Part shown: positions 799-5,566 of the stretch, piece after piece
Position numbering within the stretch: position 1 is the first letter of the stretch
Layout of the letters: every line of letters starts with the position of its first letter
Virus record (IMG/VR): IMGVR_UViG_2671180524_000015
Length of the DNA: 9,284 bases
Origin: a virus
Lineage: Duplodnaviria > Heunggongvirae > Uroviricota > Caudoviricetes
Direction: 5' to 3' (one strand)
Translations under genes and position numbers: made by a program
Notes under the pieces: generated by a model
Seen by the model: the letters and a program-made list of their open reading frames with translations, nothing else
Told to the model about the DNA's origin: nothing
Database searches by the model: none

Positions 799-875
799 TG
801 GCGCGTTGTAGTGGAGTCGAACCACTGACCGATTGCTTAGAAGGCAATTGCTCTGTCCGGCTGAGCTAACAACGC
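799..875 (-). tRNA. argO: tRNA-Arg (anticodon UCU), phage-type
   Basis: Reverse complement folds as a 77-nt cloverleaf: acceptor GCGTTGT/ACAACGC, D stem GCTC/GAGC with GG in the loop, anticodon stem ATTGC/GCAAT with loop CTTCTAA, T arm AGTGG-TTCGACT-CCACT, discriminator G, encoded CCA. Symbol is by analogy with the ileZ-argN-argO cluster of Stx phages. Confidence 0.75.
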
Positions 876-1095
876 AGAATACCGATAANNNNNNNNNNNN
901 NNNNNNNNNNNNNNNNNNNNNNNNNNNNNNNNNNNNNNTTGGGTGGGTGAGCCAACGCCCGGGAGCGATCTGCCCACAGAGAAAGTCACACTGACCACTC
1001 CATAAGCTCCCCCCGAAAGGCTCTGTGGTTGGTATGCGCCGGGCGTGGTGCGGATACAAAAAAGGTCCGCAAAAGCGAGCGAGGGAAAATAAGTG

Positions 1096-1172
1096 TGGTG
1101 CGTTGTACTGGGTTCGAACCAGTGACCGATTGCTTAGAAGGCAATTGCTCTGTCCGGCTGAGCTAAAAACGC
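1096..1172 (-). tRNA. argO: tRNA-Arg (UCU), variant copy
   Basis: Same fold and anticodon loop as 799-875, but with T at position 6 opposite C67, T stem ACTGG/CCAGT, T loop TTCGAAC and discriminator A. Confidence 0.65.
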
Positions 1173-1185
1173 AGAATACCGATAA

Positions 1186-1219
1186 TGGACCGCCATCGGA
1201 GACTCGAACCCCGCGAAAC
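1186..1219 (-). tRNA. argN: tRNA-Arg (UCG) 3' portion, truncated by N-gap
   Basis: Identical to the 3' part of the complete copy at 1446-1522 (TGGACCGCCATCGGAGACTCGAACCCCGCGAAAC on the plus strand) and runs into the gap at 1220. Confidence 0.45.
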
Positions 1220-1355
1220 NNNNNNNNNNNNNNNNNNNNNNNNNNNNNNNNNNNNNNNNNNNNNNNNNNCCCCCCGAAAGGCTCTGTGGTTGGTATGTGC
1301 CGGGCGTGGCGCAGATACAAAAAAGGCCCGCAAAAGCGAGCCGGGAAAATAAGTG

Positions 1356-1432
1356 TGGCGCGTTGTACTGGAGTCGAACCAGTGACCGATTGCTTAGAAG
1401 GCAATTGCTCTGTCCTGCTGAGCTAAAAACGC
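1356..1432 (-). tRNA. argO: tRNA-Arg (UCU), variant copy
   Basis: 77-nt cloverleaf with anticodon loop CTTCTAA, T stem ACTGG/CCAGT, T loop TTCGACT, discriminator G and CCA; T at position 6 as in the 1096-1172 copy. Confidence 0.7.
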
Positions 1433-1445
1433 AGAATACCGATAA

Positions 1446-1522
1446 TGGACCGCCATCGGAGACTCGAACCCCGCGAAACCAGCTTCGAAGGCTGGCGTTC
1501 TATCCCGATGAGCTAATGGCGG
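1446..1522 (-). tRNA. argN: tRNA-Arg (anticodon UCG by my fold)
   Basis: Reverse complement CCGCCATTAGCTCATCGGGATAGAACGCCAGCCTTCGAAGCTGGTTTCGCGGGGTTCGAGTCTCCGATGGCGGTCCA. Acceptor CCGCCAT/ATGGCGG, anticodon stem CCAGC/GCTGG with loop CTTCGAA, T arm CGGGG-TTCGAGT-CTCCG, CCA encoded. The D stem has one non-canonical pair in my fold. Confidence 0.7.
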
Positions 1523-1529
1523 TATGTGA

Positions 1530-1605
1530 TGGTGGCCCTTGCTGGATTTGAACCAGCGGCCTGGCGATTATGAGTCGCTCGCTCTCACCACTGAGCTAAA
1601 GGGCC
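1530..1605 (-). tRNA. ileZ: tRNA-Ile2-like (anticodon CAU, lysidine type)
   Basis: Reverse complement GGCCCTTTAGCTCAGTGGTGAGAGCGAGCGACTCATAATCGCCAGGCCGCTGGTTCAAATCCAGCAAGGGCCACCA. Anticodon loop CTCATAA; closely resembles my recollection of E. coli ileX rather than an initiator or elongator Met tRNA. Confidence 0.75.
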
Positions 1606-4305: not shown

Positions 4306-4334
4306 AGAAAAAACAAAACCCGCCGAAGCGGGTT
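4306..4334 (-). terminator. Intrinsic terminator between hok and the rem-like gene
   Basis: Minus strand AACCCGC-TTCG-GCGGGTT followed by TTGTTTTTT (7-bp stem, UUCG tetraloop). Confidence 0.6.
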
Positions 4335-4402
4335 AAGTGCGGGTGCGTTGAGGATGCCTGACACATCAGCGGTGGCGAGGGATTTCTCCCCCGCCTGGTC
4401 TC

Positions 4403-4545
4403 TTACTCCTCAGGTTCGTAAGCTGTGAAGACANNNNNNNNNNNNNNNNNNNNNNNNNNNNNNNNNNNNNNNNNNNNNNNNNNGTCACTATGACGGTTAA
4501 ACAGATGACGATCAGGGCGATTAACATCGCCTTTTGCTGCTTCAT
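4403..4545 (-). CDS. hokD: Hok-family type I toxin (HokD/RelF-like), interrupted by N-gap 4434-4483
   Basis: AAGGAG Shine-Dalgarno then ATG at 4545-4543. N-terminus MKQQKAMLIALIVICLTVIV; after the gap the frame ends ..VFTAYEPEE with TAA at 4405-4403. Both ends match my memory of the 51-aa HokD. Confidence 0.8.
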
Positions 4546-4666
4546 AACCTGCTTCTCCTTGCCTTTCGGCGCGTAAGAGGCTAACCTACGTTTGTGAAGC
4601 ATAGATTGGGCCTCAGATTAATGTTAAGCGTCTTGCAGGACGCGTAATGTTAACTGGGGCTTTTCT

Positions 4667-4702
4667 CTGTCTGCCTTACGGTGGCATGCCCGAGGCAGAC
4701 AG
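4667..4702. repeat. Perfect 10-bp inverted repeat with 16-bp spacer containing an 8-bp palindrome
   Basis: CTGTCTGCCT (4667-4676), spacer TACGGTGGCATGCCCG with GGCATGCC inside, AGGCAGACAG (4693-4702). Confidence 0.5.
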
Positions 4703-4762
4703 CCTCAAGCACCCGCAGCAATTCTACTTAACTCTCGCTTTACAGCAAACCGTTTTGCCCGA

Positions 4763-4778
4763 TATGGGAATTCCCATA
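4763..4778. repeat. Perfect 16-bp palindrome TATGGGAATTCCCATA
   Basis: Self-complementary over all 16 positions; lies about 11 nt downstream of the stop of the 34-aa peptide gene. Confidence 0.5.
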
Positions 4779-4788
4779 CGGAATGAAT

Positions 4789-4893
4789 TCAGTTCCCCAG
4801 GCGCTCCATCAAAAACACAACCAGGCAGTAAACACCCACAACAGCAATAACAGCCAGAGCGCCTTCCATTACCAGTGAAATATCATCCGACAT
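4789..4893 (-). CDS. 34-aa hydrophobic (single predicted transmembrane helix) peptide
   Basis: Strong AAGGGAGGG Shine-Dalgarno 4 nt before the ATG at 4893-4891; MSDDISLVMEGALAVIAVVGVYCLVVFLMERLGN, stop TGA at 4791-4789. Below the ORF-track size cutoff. Not recognised. Confidence 0.5.
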   Translation of the reverse strand: MSDDISLVMEGALAVIAVVGVYCLVVFLMERLGN

Positions 4894-5002
4894 ATTCCCT
4901 CCCTTGGTGTGAATCCCGGCGAACGTTTTTACCCCCACCGACAAATAACATATACTAGAAAAGCAATAGCTATAGCAACGCCTGCAAATGCATCTGGCCG
5001 GC

Positions 5003-5566
5003 TCATTGGTTCTCCCCCTGTGTCGCTTCTACTGCGATCTGACTGGCGTATTCGTTAATGGTAACGATAAGTTCTTGCTCGGCCTCATCCAGACAACTAC
5101 CGATACCTCGCCTGTCCACTTCAGAAGCATCGAAATCTGCACGAAGCCTGGCGACCTTCAGGATTGCGGACAACACCTCATCAGGGATTGCCGGAGAGTT
5201 GGTTGACGTTTCCGAGATTATCCGAAAATTATTGGTTGACGAACCCTTATTTTCCCGAAAGTTTCCAGCCTGAAGCATGGCGGCGCGGTGACACCAGATA
5301 ATCCAGCCAAGCGCCATATCCCATGCCATGTATTCTCTATCGCCATTTTTTGCTCTGCGGCGATCTACAGATTCCCCGAAACGCTTCTCCATAAATAATT
5401 CATAGGCTGCCCGTTCATCCGATACTGATGCCAGTGATGCCAGTGCAATTTTTAATGCGGTAAGCATGTTGTTTTGATCTTCATCGAGTCCGAACGGTAT
5501 TTCATCCCGTGATGACTCAATTCCGGTAATCGTGTTCTGTAGCCATTCTTTGGTTAATTCAGTCAT
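5003..5566 (-). CDS. Hypothetical protein, 187 aa
   Basis: Long ORF from ATG 5566-5564 (MTELTKEWLQNTITGIESSRDE...) to stop 5005-5003. Weak Shine-Dalgarno; preceded by a 126-nt AT-rich intergenic region. No family recognised. Confidence 0.6.
   Translation of the reverse strand: MTELTKEWLQNTITGIESSRDEIPFGLDEDQNNMLTALKIALASLASVSDERAAYELFMEKRFGESVDRRRAKNGDREYMAWDMALGWIIWCHRAAMLQAGNFRENKGSSTNNFRIISETSTNSPAIPDEVLSAILKVARLRADFDASEVDRRGIGSCLDEAEQELIVTINEYASQIAVEATQGENQ

What the first reader, a model, noticed from the sequence alone, without database searches (positions are those of the whole stretch)
4789..4893. Unannotated 34-aa membrane peptide with a strong ribosome-binding site
MSDDISLVMEGALAVIAVVGVYCLVVFLMERLGN has an acidic N-terminus, one hydrophobic helix and a short polar tail, with a near-consensus Shine-Dalgarno. 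That is the architecture of type I toxins and of small membrane modulators, and it lies between an unknown 187-aa gene and the hok locus. It is too short to appear in the ORF track.
Basis: partly seen in the sequence, partly recalled or inferred. Interest (0 to 1): 0.5.

Follow-up and report, generated by a model that had tools for sequence, protein, structure and literature searches.

The report
Small prophage membrane peptide beside hok
The 34-codon reading frame is a real, conserved and translated gene for a tiny membrane protein of E. coli lambdoid prophages that almost always sits directly in front of the hok/sok killer locus, but nothing indicates that it is itself a type I toxin and its function is still unknown.

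Summary
It is not unannotated: RefSeq lists it as hypothetical protein WP_001278460.1. A paralogue differing by two residues was published in 2017 as XECs145, a translated novel gene of strain Sakai (ribosome coverage value 4.35 in LB).

All 98 related loci keep the 34-codon frame. Substitutions concentrate at third codon positions, and dN/dS is about 0.1-0.4.

A sister subfamily at about 50% identity has a GTG start and 29 codons. It occurs in 1956 of 5426 complete E. coli genomes and is unannotated at every match listed.

Both subfamilies lie immediately 5' of the hok promoter (91 of 94 and 87 of 90 loci), while their upstream neighbours vary.

In this window the gene is a 173-bp cassette flanked by AAAACG repeats. 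It lies between a second micro-ORF (25 aa) and hok; phage 933W lacks the cassette precisely.

I found no antisense RNA, no promoter of its own and no structured mRNA, so the type I toxin reading is not supported.

My best reading is an ordinary early-operon membrane microprotein, inherited with hok and possibly working with it. That link is inference.

The parts
4789..4893 (-). ORF-B, the finding: a 34-aa single-helix microprotein gene, MSDDISLVMEGALAVIAVVGVYCLVVFLMERLGN, stop codon included.
   Evidence: Annotated as WP_001278460.1. The frame is intact in all 98 family-1 loci read (one runs off its contig before the stop). dN/dS against the window is 0.10-0.44 for most pairs. Paralogue XECs145 is translated.
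4894..4905 (-). Shine-Dalgarno region AAGGGAGGGAAT. The GGAGG core lies at 4902..4898, 4 nt before the ATG.
   Evidence: Read from the sequence. GGAGGGAAT-ATG is unchanged in every family-1 sequence aligned, including the most diverged ones. SD census.
4751..4923 (-). ORF-B cassette: a 173-nt unit made of leader with SD, the ORF, and a trailer with a palindrome. It is present here and precisely absent in phages 933W and vB_EcoS-689R5.
   Evidence: Alignment and sequences. In 933W the text reads ...TGGAGATAAAAACG|GTTTGCGG..., joining ORF-A directly to the hok promoter.
4924..4929 (-). Upstream copy of the AAAACG direct repeat that flanks the cassette.
4751..4756 (-). Downstream copy of the AAAACG direct repeat, at the last six bases of the cassette.
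4763..4778 (-). Perfect 16-bp palindrome TATGGGAATTCCCATA, 11 nt after the ORF-B stop. It is a 22-bp palindrome, CGATATGGGAATTCCCATATCG, in most relatives. No U-tract follows it.
   Evidence: It is conserved in family 1, including the hok-less variants, and absent from family 2.
4929..5006 (-). ORF-A: a 25-aa hydrophobic micro-ORF, MSRPDAFAGVAIAIAFLVYVICRWG. Its ATG overlaps the stop of the 187-aa gene (ATGA), and GGGGGAG lies at 5018..5012. It is not annotated in RefSeq.
   Evidence: The frame and the stop position are kept in diverged relatives (27 aa), and variable sites by codon position are 8/10/19. It is intact in 90 of 98 family-1 loci. A homologue sits directly before hokW in 933W.
4929..4937 (-). 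TGGGGGTAA: a run of five G followed by the ORF-A stop codon. A rare six-G allele fuses ORF-A and ORF-B into one 74-aa protein with two helices.
   Evidence: Structure model of the fusion (two helices, mean pLDDT 70.6).
4721..4749 (-). hok promoter: -35 TTTGCT (4749..4744), a 17-nt spacer, and -10 TAGAAT (4726..4721).
   Evidence: Inferred from its position just upstream of the 5' end of the Rfam hok-leader match and from its conservation. The equivalent TTGGCG-17-TAGAAT site in L104 was picked up by the promoter scan.
4317..4714 (-). The hok/sok cassette: hok mRNA leader with the sok region (4714..4540), mok start at 4602, hok CDS at 4545..4403, and terminator hairpin at 4334..4317. The hok CDS is partly masked by N at 4434..4483.
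   Evidence: Rfam RF01794, 114.9 bits. RefSeq calls the gene hokD. Terminator.
5003..5566 (-). Upstream 187-aa gene of unknown function (PHROG 14306). In other prophages a DUF551 gene takes its place.

Best explanation
ORF-B is a genuine gene for a 34-residue, single-pass inner-membrane microprotein that belongs to Escherichia lambdoid (pro)phages.

It has no promoter or antisense regulator of its own. It is read as an ordinary SD-driven cistron from transcripts that enter from upstream, either the early rightward operon or whatever keeps this region transcribed in lysogens.

Physically it is a 173-bp cassette inserted between another micro-ORF (ORF-A) and the hok promoter. Together with a sister subfamily at about 50% identity, it forms a family whose members sit immediately 5' of the hok/sok cassette in about 97% of loci.

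The part conserved between the two subfamilies is the helix plus its tail: ALA-x-x-AV-x-x-x-YCL-x-V-x-LMDRL. The product therefore most likely acts through helix-helix contacts in the membrane.

My preferred mechanism is an accessory that acts alongside Hok. It could tune Hok insertion or oligomerisation, and so membrane depolarisation and lysis timing when the prophage is induced.

Shown: the gene is real, it is conserved as a protein, a paralogue is translated, it is linked to hok, and the cassette boundaries are as given. Inferred: membrane location, source of transcription, and any interaction with Hok.

My confidence that it is a real translated microprotein gene is about 0.9. My confidence that it works with Hok is about 0.35-0.4.
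For: - **Coding:** every one of the 98 family-1 loci keeps the 34-codon frame (one runs off its contig just before the stop), and the stop codon is kept where it varies, TGA or TAA.
- **Selection:** Nei-Gojobori dN/dS against the window is 0.10-0.44 for 11 of the 13 informative comparisons. This includes 0.21 for the most diverged metagenomic variant, where pS is 0.46. Variable sites by codon position are 10/7/19, p = 0.039.
- **Ribosome-binding site:** the SD plus ATG is unchanged even where the spacer just upstream has diverged.
- **Sister subfamily:** all 91 loci have a GTG start with GGAGG 5 nt upstream, 90 of 91 keep the TGA stop, and codon-position variability is 6/6/17, p = 0.015.
- **Translation:** Hücker et al. 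2017 (PMC5597208) list the paralogue XECs145. In LB its RNA RPKM is 79.1, its ribosome-footprint RPKM 346.1, its ribosome coverage value 4.35 and its coverage 0.99. The paper predicts an inner-membrane location. The mean coverage value of short annotated genes there is 1.55.
- **Linkage to hok:** 91 of 94 family-1 and 87 of 90 family-2 loci have the hok leader just downstream. Upstream neighbours differ: the 187-aa gene, DUF551, an IS5-family insertion (ISKpn26), a GmrSD-family gene followed by an uncharacterised 349-aa gene, or an acetyltransferase on the other strand.
- **Cassette boundaries:**
- **Helix:** the structure model shows a helix over this segment with block-mean pLDDT 66-81.
- **Context for Hok:** prophage hokW-sokW speeds lysis and doubles phage release after mitomycin C (PMC8621323).
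Against: - The Hok protein is essentially identical next to family 1, next to family 2 and where neither is present. There is no co-variation to suggest a specific contact.
- hokW works as a toxin-antitoxin system and promotes lysis in Sp5. The closely related phage 933W carries hokW without ORF-B, and ORF-B DNA matches no record in the phage collection, which holds VT2-Sakai.
- Eleven complete genomes keep an intact ORF-B with no hok downstream; IbrB/IbrA genes lie there instead.
- Only 10-75 nt separate ORF-B from the hok promoter. Co-inheritance could be purely physical.
- The translation evidence is for a paralogue in another Sakai prophage, and that study removed identical ORFs, so reads may come from several copies.
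- There is no homology to any characterised protein in Pfam, NCBIfam, PHROGs or PADLOC.
Confidence: 0.45

Rival explanations
1. It is a real membrane microprotein, but its neighbourhood with hok is only historical and physical. It acts on some host or phage membrane target unrelated to Hok, for example a transporter, a sensor kinase, a DNA-entry route or a superinfection-exclusion target, as other small phage and E. coli membrane proteins do.
For: - Hok is identical whichever subfamily, or none, precedes it.
- ORF-B persists intact without hok in 11 complete genomes.
- hok cassettes occur without ORF-B in 933W-type Stx phages, Rac-SA53, PhiR12_3 and P1-like phages.
- The hok part is about 90% identical between contexts, while the peptide genes have diverged to about 50% amino-acid identity. 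This fits a hok cassette that spreads or is homogenised independently.
- The paralogue is translated in uninduced cultures.
Against: The upstream junction of ORF-B has been reshuffled many times, whereas the ORF-B/hok junction is unbroken in about 97% of 184 loci across two diverged subfamilies. That asymmetry is not expected if ORF-B were just another independent nin-region gene. The very short spacer weakens this argument.
Confidence: 0.33
2. ORF-B is itself a type I toxin: a membrane-depolarising peptide kept silent by an antisense RNA.
For: The peptide has the right size and shape, with a short polar N-terminus, one hydrophobic helix and a short tail. It lies in a prophage next to a bona fide type I system.
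Against: - Rfam finds nothing over 4750..4930 on either strand.
- The promoter scan finds no plus-strand promoter that would read across ORF-B. The only nearby plus-strand site, 4928..4956, reads away from it.
- The ORF has no predicted promoter of its own.
- The mRNA is not unusually structured (z = -0.5).
- The paralogue is efficiently translated during normal growth in LB and BHI. Type I toxin transcripts are translationally inert until processed (review PMC12648545).
- There is no match to any toxin family.
Confidence: 0.07
3. The functional product is a two-helix protein of 72-74 aa made from ORF-A plus ORF-B. In this lineage a one-base deletion in the G-run split the gene. The full-length protein would then come only from rare six-G alleles or from a -1 ribosomal slip at G-GGG-UAA.
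For: Three independent short-read assemblies carry six G and an uninterrupted 74-aa ORF (P0008, P0009). A -1 slip of the glycine tRNA at G GGG with UAA in the A site would give exactly the same protein; this follows from the sequence. The fusion is modelled as two helices. Under the 'Rosetta stone' argument, a fusion suggests that A and B interact.
Against: - Every family-1 locus read apart from those three short-read assemblies has five G and the stop codon. This includes complete genomes with the same haplotypes as the six-G assemblies.
- The most diverged variant has no G-run; there A and B are in one frame, separated by TAA.
- 933W has ORF-A alone, and 79 of 91 family-2 loci have no ORF-A.
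- The SD before ORF-B is unchanged throughout, which argues for independent initiation.
- G GGG UAA is not a canonical X XXY YYZ slip site, and I found no stimulatory structure.
Confidence: 0.05
4. The peptide itself has no function. Either the ORF is translated only as a by-product, or the act of translating it matters, for instance by keeping read-through transcription or mRNA stability intact up to the hok promoter.
For: The ORF ends only 10 nt (family 2) or 39 nt (family 1) before the hok -35 element. The non-coding spacer and the trailer are about as conserved as the ORF: 0.34 and 0.41 of their sites vary, against 0.35 in the ORF.
Against: Substitutions are biased to third positions and to conservative replacements in both subfamilies. 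The helix and the LMDRL tail are conserved between subfamilies that differ in about 40% of nucleotides. This indicates selection on the amino-acid sequence, not merely on an open frame.
Confidence: 0.07

Closest known systems
XECs145, a 'novel intergenic gene' of E. coli O157:H7 Sakai (Hücker et al. 2017, PLoS One, PMC5597208)
   Same: It is the same gene family and subfamily. Its last 34 residues, MSDDISLAMEGALAVIAVVGVYCLVVFLMDRLGN, differ from the window's product at two positions (V8A, E30D). [quoted passage not shown]
   Different: It is another prophage copy (Sakai 1550761-1550922). It was called with an upstream extension to 162 bp, without the SD-linked ATG. The paper proposes no function and does not note the link to hok or the existence of ORF-A.
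Hok/Gef type I toxins (Pfam PF01848) and other type I membrane toxins such as Ldr, TisB, Ibs, ShoB, DinQ and ZorO
   Same: It is a short peptide with a single hydrophobic helix, encoded on a mobile element directly beside a hok/sok locus.
   Different: There is no sequence match to any toxin family. No antisense RNA, own promoter or fold-back mRNA was found. It is efficiently translated in normal growth. It lacks the long periplasmic tail of Hok.
Small inner-membrane regulatory proteins of E. coli (AcrZ, MgtS, KdpF, CydX, MgrB; reviewed in PMC12648545)
   Same: It has about 30-50 residues and one transmembrane helix, is translated from a normal SD, and is conserved mainly in the helix. This is the class it most resembles in how it probably works, by binding a larger membrane partner.
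   Different: There is no homology to any of them. No partner is known. It is phage-borne and confined to Escherichia: no relative was found in 185,579 species-representative genomes.
Lambdoid-phage 'moron' and nin-region accessory genes
   Same: It is a short, dispensable cassette with sharp boundaries at gene junctions, present or absent between otherwise homologous phages, and flanked by microhomology (AAAACG).
   Different: Classic morons carry their own promoter and terminator. ORF-B has neither. Instead it rides directly upstream of a unit, hok/sok, that has both.

Membership tests
Type I toxin-antitoxin toxin | A small (<60 aa) hydrophobic peptide with one transmembrane helix. | tested here: met
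   The product has 34 aa with a hydrophobic core GALAVIAVVGVYCLVVFLM. The structure model shows a helix over this segment.
Type I toxin-antitoxin toxin | A cognate antisense or overlapping small RNA antitoxin with its own promoter. | tested here: not met
   Rfam finds nothing over 4750..4930 at E-values up to 1. The consensus scan finds no plus-strand promoter reading across the ORF. These are computational tests only; a strand-specific search for transcript starts would settle it.
Type I toxin-antitoxin toxin | A toxin mRNA that is highly structured and translationally inert until processed. | tested here: not met
   The fold of 4935..4760 has z = -0.5 against shuffles. The paralogue has a ribosome coverage value of 4.35 in LB.
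Type I toxin-antitoxin toxin | Growth arrest or membrane depolarisation on expression. | not testable with these tools
   This needs inducible expression.
Type I toxin-antitoxin toxin | Sequence membership of a described toxin family (Hok/Gef, Ldr, Ibs, TisB and others). | tested here: not met
   There are no Pfam hits and no significant NCBIfam or PADLOC hits: one weak chance-level match in each, at E = 0.053 and E = 0.027. There is no PHROG hit.
hok/mok/sok locus (component of the transcript unit) | Lies within the hok mRNA, between the tac element at the 5' end and the terminator. | tested here: not met
   The ORF-B stop at 4789 lies 75 nt upstream of the hok mRNA 5' end at about 4714, and upstream of the -35 element.
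hok/mok/sok locus (component of the transcript unit) | Constant co-occurrence with hok. | tested here: inconclusive
   Of the testable loci, 91 of 94 (family 1) and 87 of 90 (family 2) have hok just downstream. However, many hok loci lack ORF-B, and 11 genomes have ORF-B without hok.
Small inner-membrane regulatory microproteins (AcrZ/MgtS/KdpF class) | At most about 50 aa, one transmembrane helix, independently translated. | tested here: met
   Sequence and SD. Published ribosome profiling of the paralogue.
Small inner-membrane regulatory microproteins (AcrZ/MgtS/KdpF class) | A defined larger membrane partner whose activity it changes. | not testable with these tools
   No partner is known. 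Hok is a candidate by position only.
Programmed -1 frameshift gene (ORF-A/ORF-B fusion) | A slippery X XXY YYZ heptamer plus a downstream stimulatory structure, with conservation of both. | tested here: not met
   The junction is U GGG GGU AA, with no canonical heptamer. The G-run is absent in the diverged variant and in 933W. The six-G fusion is a rare allele.

The most novel reading that the evidence does not exclude
Lambdoid-phage hok loci may be three-part systems. In this reading the ORF-B family microprotein, and perhaps ORF-A, is a protein-level partner of Hok in the inner membrane. It would act either as an immunity or anti-Hok factor that lets the phage finish its lytic programme, or as a co-factor that sets when Hok depolarises the cell. 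That would add a protein modulator to the textbook RNA-only regulation of hok/sok.
Probability: 0.15. Interest if true: 0.7.

Novelty: new member of a known kind. Interest (0 to 1): 0.35.

Why it matters
The gene itself is not a discovery. It is already in RefSeq as a hypothetical protein, and a paralogue was reported as translated in 2017.

What I did not find described is the pattern around it, though my literature check was narrow: two full-text searches plus parts of three papers.
- A family of 29-34-residue membrane peptides sits directly in front of the hok promoter in lambdoid prophages.
- The two subfamilies occur in 674 and 1956 of the 5426 complete E. coli genomes. The larger subfamily is unannotated at every match listed.

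If the peptides work with Hok, they would give a simple, testable handle on how prophages use a classic toxin-antitoxin system during induction. If they do not, they are still abundant, translated phage microproteins of unknown function in major pathogens.

Tried and rejected
- **Profile searches.** Pfam, NCBIfam, PHROGs and PADLOC gave nothing for ORF-B, ORF-A or the family-2 peptide.
- **First homologue search.** It failed because 34 aa is under the tool's 40-aa minimum. I re-ran it with the 51-aa TTG-extended frame.
- **Other species.** A scan of one genome for each of 185,579 species found no relative. The family is effectively confined to Escherichia.
- **Isolated phages.** No phage record in the collection carries family 1 at DNA level. 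A protein-level search found only the family-2 phages.
- **Exhaustive profile search.** A search of 1.84 billion representative proteins gave 17 hits, all fragments or variants of ORF-A or ORF-B.
- **Literature.** Searching full text for the peptide sequence and for the WP accession numbers gave nothing. The hit came only from the supplements of the Sakai ribosome-profiling paper. The EDL933 ribosome-profiling supplements do not contain it.
- **Rejected: 'hok-less means fused'.** I first thought the variants without hok were always ORF-A/ORF-B fusions. Complete genomes with the same haplotypes have five G and are split, so the fusion is a rare allele.
- **Rejected: the palindrome as a terminator.** No U-tract follows it, and the fold of the region is not exceptional (z = -1.64).
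- **Rejected: co-variation with Hok.** Hok is the same in all contexts.
- **Weak: the structure model.** The model of the fusion shows only two helices at mean pLDDT 70.6. I ran no fold search because two generic helices would give meaningless matches.

Full report
**1. What is there**

The minus strand of the window from 4893 down to 4789 reads ATG...TGA and encodes MSDDISLVMEGALAVIAVVGVYCLVVFLMERLGN. The sequence AAGGGAGGGAAT precedes it, with a GGAGG core four bases before the ATG.

This ribosome-binding site is not a chance feature. In the whole window, on both strands, only nine start codons combine an ORF of at least 25 codons with GGAGG 4-16 nt upstream. All nine are on the minus strand, which is the coding strand, and most are starts of RefSeq-annotated genes; two are GTG codons inside the 118-aa gene.

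**2. Context**

The window is identical to lambdoid prophage DNA in many E. coli O157:H7 chromosomes. The RefSeq annotation of one of them gives the following order, all on the window's minus strand:
- a LexA-family repressor gene (the cI position; on the opposite strand), then Cro, YdaT, a DnaT-like O protein and replication protein P
- several hypothetical genes
- a 187-aa hypothetical gene
- this 34-aa ORF, annotated as hypothetical protein WP_001278460.1
- hokD, a 92-aa hypothetical gene, DUF968, RusA and the Q antiterminator
- tRNA genes

So the ORF lies in the delayed-early 'nin' region, co-directional with the early rightward operon. It is already annotated in public records.

The Rfam model of the hok leader/sok region matches 4714..4540 at 114.9 bits. 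This puts the 5' end of the hok mRNA near 4714. A conserved -35 TTTGCT / -10 TAGAAT promoter lies at 4749..4721. ORF-B therefore ends 75 nt before the hok transcript starts and is not part of it.

**3. Is it a gene?**

No profile library recognises it. The comparative evidence that it codes for protein is nevertheless consistent.
- The 241-nt region occurs at 1468 places in 674 of 5426 complete E. coli genomes. Prophage contigs in IMG/VR yielded 153 relatives.
- I read 98 family-1 loci: RefSeq chromosomes, viral contigs and metagenome assemblies. All keep the 34-codon frame; one runs off its contig just before the stop. Where the stop codon varies, TGA to TAA, it remains a stop.
- dN/dS against the window is 0.10-0.44 for 11 of the 13 informative comparisons. 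It is 0.21 for the most diverged variant, from human-gut metagenomes, where the synonymous difference is 0.46 per site. Replacements are mostly conservative: I/L/V/M, A/S, D/E.
- Variable columns fall 10/7/19 on codon positions 1/2/3 (p = 0.039).
- The SD-ATG is unchanged even in the diverged variant, whose spacer just upstream is largely rewritten.

One caution applies. The flanking non-coding stretches vary about as little as the ORF. Plain DNA conservation therefore proves nothing here. The argument rests on the pattern of substitutions.

**4. Translation**

The supplements of Hücker et al. 2017 (PMC5597208) list XECs145. This is a 'novel intergenic gene' of strain Sakai whose C-terminal 34 residues differ from the window's product at two positions. 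Its values in their S2 Table are:

| Condition | RNA RPKM | Footprint RPKM | Ribosome coverage value | Coverage |
|---|---|---|---|---|
| LB, 37 °C | 79.1 | 346.1 | 4.35 | 0.99 |
| BHI control | 121.3 | 150.1 | 1.14 | 0.84 |
| BHI stress | 73.3 | 1.1 | 0.01 | 0.37 |

The mean coverage value of short annotated genes in LB in that study is 1.55. The paper predicts an inner-membrane location and notes that the ORF is annotated as hypothetical in other EHEC strains.

This is direct published evidence that a near-identical copy is translated, in uninduced cultures. It is not evidence for this particular copy, because the study removed ORFs with identical sequences and reads may come from several prophages.

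**5. A sister subfamily and the link to hok**

An exhaustive profile search and a follow-up search uncovered a second subfamily...VLVLKCALAIAAVMAIYCLAVVLMDRLSD. It is about 50% identical to ORF-B over the helix and tail.
- At DNA level it has a GTG start with GGAGG five bases upstream in 91 of 91 loci and a TGA stop in 90 of 91.
- Its variability by codon position is 6/6/17 (p = 0.015). It too looks protein-coding, at 29 codons.
- It occurs in 1956 of 5426 complete E. coli genomes and in phages mEp460, Tritos, Evi and HannyBb. No annotated feature lies under any of the listed genome matches or under three of the four phage matches.

Both subfamilies sit directly in front of the hok promoter. 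91 of 94 testable family-1 loci and 87 of 90 family-2 loci have the hok leader just downstream. In family 2 the stop codon lies only about 10 nt before the hok -35 element.

The upstream neighbours vary: the 187-aa gene, DUF551, an IS5-family insertion (ISKpn26), a GmrSD-family gene followed by an uncharacterised 349-aa gene, or an acetyltransferase on the opposite strand. The upstream junction has been reshuffled repeatedly, while the junction with hok has almost never been broken.

**6. Limits of that link**

- hok cassettes occur without ORF-B in 933W-type Stx phages, Rac-SA53, PhiR12_3 and P1-like phages.
- In 933W and vB_EcoS-689R5 the sequence runs straight from ORF-A's stop codon into the hok promoter. 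Aligned with the window, ORF-B is a 173-nt insertion/deletion (4923..4751) bounded by AAAACG on both sides.
- Sp5 hokW-sokW is a working type I system that speeds lysis and doubles phage release after mitomycin C (PMC8621323). The closely related 933W carries hokW without ORF-B, and ORF-B DNA matches no record in the phage collection, which holds VT2-Sakai. Hok evidently does not need ORF-B.
- Conversely, 11 complete genomes carry an intact ORF-B followed by oppositely oriented IbrB/IbrA genes instead of hok. Homology breaks at the hok -10 element.
- The Hok protein is essentially the same next to family 1, next to family 2 and next to neither. There is no co-variation.
- The 10-75-nt spacer is short enough that physical linkage alone could explain much of the co-inheritance.

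**7. ORF-A and the fusion allele**

Just upstream, at 5006..4929, lies a second micro-ORF of 25 aa: MSRPDAFAGVAIAIAFLVYVICRWG. Its ATG overlaps the stop of the 187-aa gene (ATGA), and a GGGGGAG sequence precedes it.
- Its length and its stop position are kept in diverged relatives (27 aa), and substitutions favour third positions, 8/10/19.
- It is intact in 90 of 98 family-1 loci. It is broken by a stop codon, a frameshift or an IS element in a few. The commonest allele puts an Asp in the helix. Constraint on it is weaker than on ORF-B.
- It travels with the upstream gene rather than with ORF-B. Only 12 of 91 family-2 loci have it, and 933W has ORF-A without ORF-B.

Three short-read assemblies carry six G instead of five at TGGGGGTAA. 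This fuses A and B into a 74-aa ORF, which is modelled as two helices at mean pLDDT 70.6. Complete genomes with the same haplotypes have five G, so the fusion is a rare allele.

A -1 ribosomal slip at G-GGG-UAA would yield the same protein. The site is not a canonical slip site and is not conserved. I rate this reading at about 5%.

**8. Testing the type I toxin idea**

The peptide has the right shape, but the features that define such loci are missing.
- There is no Rfam family and no antisense promoter over the ORF.
- There is no promoter of its own.
- The mRNA folds no better than shuffled sequence (z = -0.5).
- A near-identical copy is efficiently translated in ordinary growth. Type I toxin transcripts are inert until processed (PMC12648545).

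Toxicity itself cannot be tested here. I put this reading at about 7%.

**9. Best explanation**

ORF-B is a real, translated, single-pass membrane microprotein of Escherichia lambdoid prophages. It is expressed as an ordinary cistron from upstream transcription and is carried on a small cassette that is inherited together with hok/sok.

The conserved part is the helix and the LMDRL tail. It therefore probably works through helix-helix contact with a membrane partner.

Hok is the obvious candidate partner by position, and this would fit the role of prophage hok in lysis timing. That step is inference, at about 0.35-0.4. A Hok-independent target is nearly as likely, at about 0.33.

**10. Novelty and score**

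The gene is already annotated, and a paralogue was published as translated. It belongs to the known kind 'small phage or bacterial membrane protein of unknown function'.

In the narrow literature check I ran I did not find three things described: the two-subfamily family, its near-constant position in front of hok, and the cassette structure.

I score interest at 0.35. It is a tidy, testable lead rather than a surprise.

Noticed in passing
window 4929-5006 (-): ORF-A is a second hydrophobic micro-ORF of 25 aa, MSRPDAFAGVAIAIAFLVYVICRWG. It overlaps the stop of the 187-aa gene (ATGA) and has its own GGGGGAG upstream. RefSeq does not annotate it. It is conserved as a 27-aa ORF in diverged relatives, and a homologue lies directly before hokW in phage 933W.
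   Followed up: yes
window 4929-4937 (-); L091-L093: The G-run at the ORF-A stop codon (TGGGGGTAA) is polymorphic. Three short-read assemblies have six G, which fuses ORF-A and ORF-B into a 74-aa two-helix ORF. Complete genomes with the same haplotype have five G.
   Followed up: yes
window 4763-4778 (-): A perfect palindrome, TATGGGAATTCCCATA, lies 11 nt after the ORF-B stop. It is 22 bp long in most relatives and is centred about 56 bp upstream of the hok transcript start. No U-tract follows it, so it is not an obvious terminator. It could be a protein-binding site or an RNA 3' hairpin. It is absent from the sister subfamily.
   Followed up: partly
L099-L189 (e.g. L100 3121-3210); phages mEp460, Tritos, Evi, HannyBb: The sister subfamily of ORF-B has 29 codons, a GTG start and the sequence VLVLKCALAIAAVMAIYCLAVVLMDRLSD. 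It lies directly before hok in 1956 of 5426 complete E. coli genomes. No annotated feature lies under any of the 30 RefSeq matches listed or under three of the four phage matches.
   Followed up: yes
L091-L093, L190-L193: A variant of the ORF-A/ORF-B module has no hok. Homology stops at the hok -10 element, and oppositely oriented IbrB-like and PAPS-reductase/DUF3440 (IbrA-like) genes follow. Eleven complete genomes carry it.
   Followed up: partly
window 4434-4483: A run of 50 N masks the middle of the hok coding sequence. It is 13 nt shorter than the real sequence in identical genomes. Window coordinates below it are therefore offset by 13 relative to public records.
   Followed up: yes
window 802-1605 (-): Rfam detects five tRNA genes downstream of the Q antiterminator region. 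This is two more than the three tRNAs annotated in the 100%-identical RefSeq locus I looked at.
   Followed up: no
L198 (P1-like phage MH422554) 371-697: In a P1-like phage the hok promoter is overlapped by the end of a 108-aa ORF with a strongly hydrophobic C-terminal segment. This is another membrane-type ORF abutting a hok cassette, unrelated in sequence to ORF-A or ORF-B.
   Followed up: no
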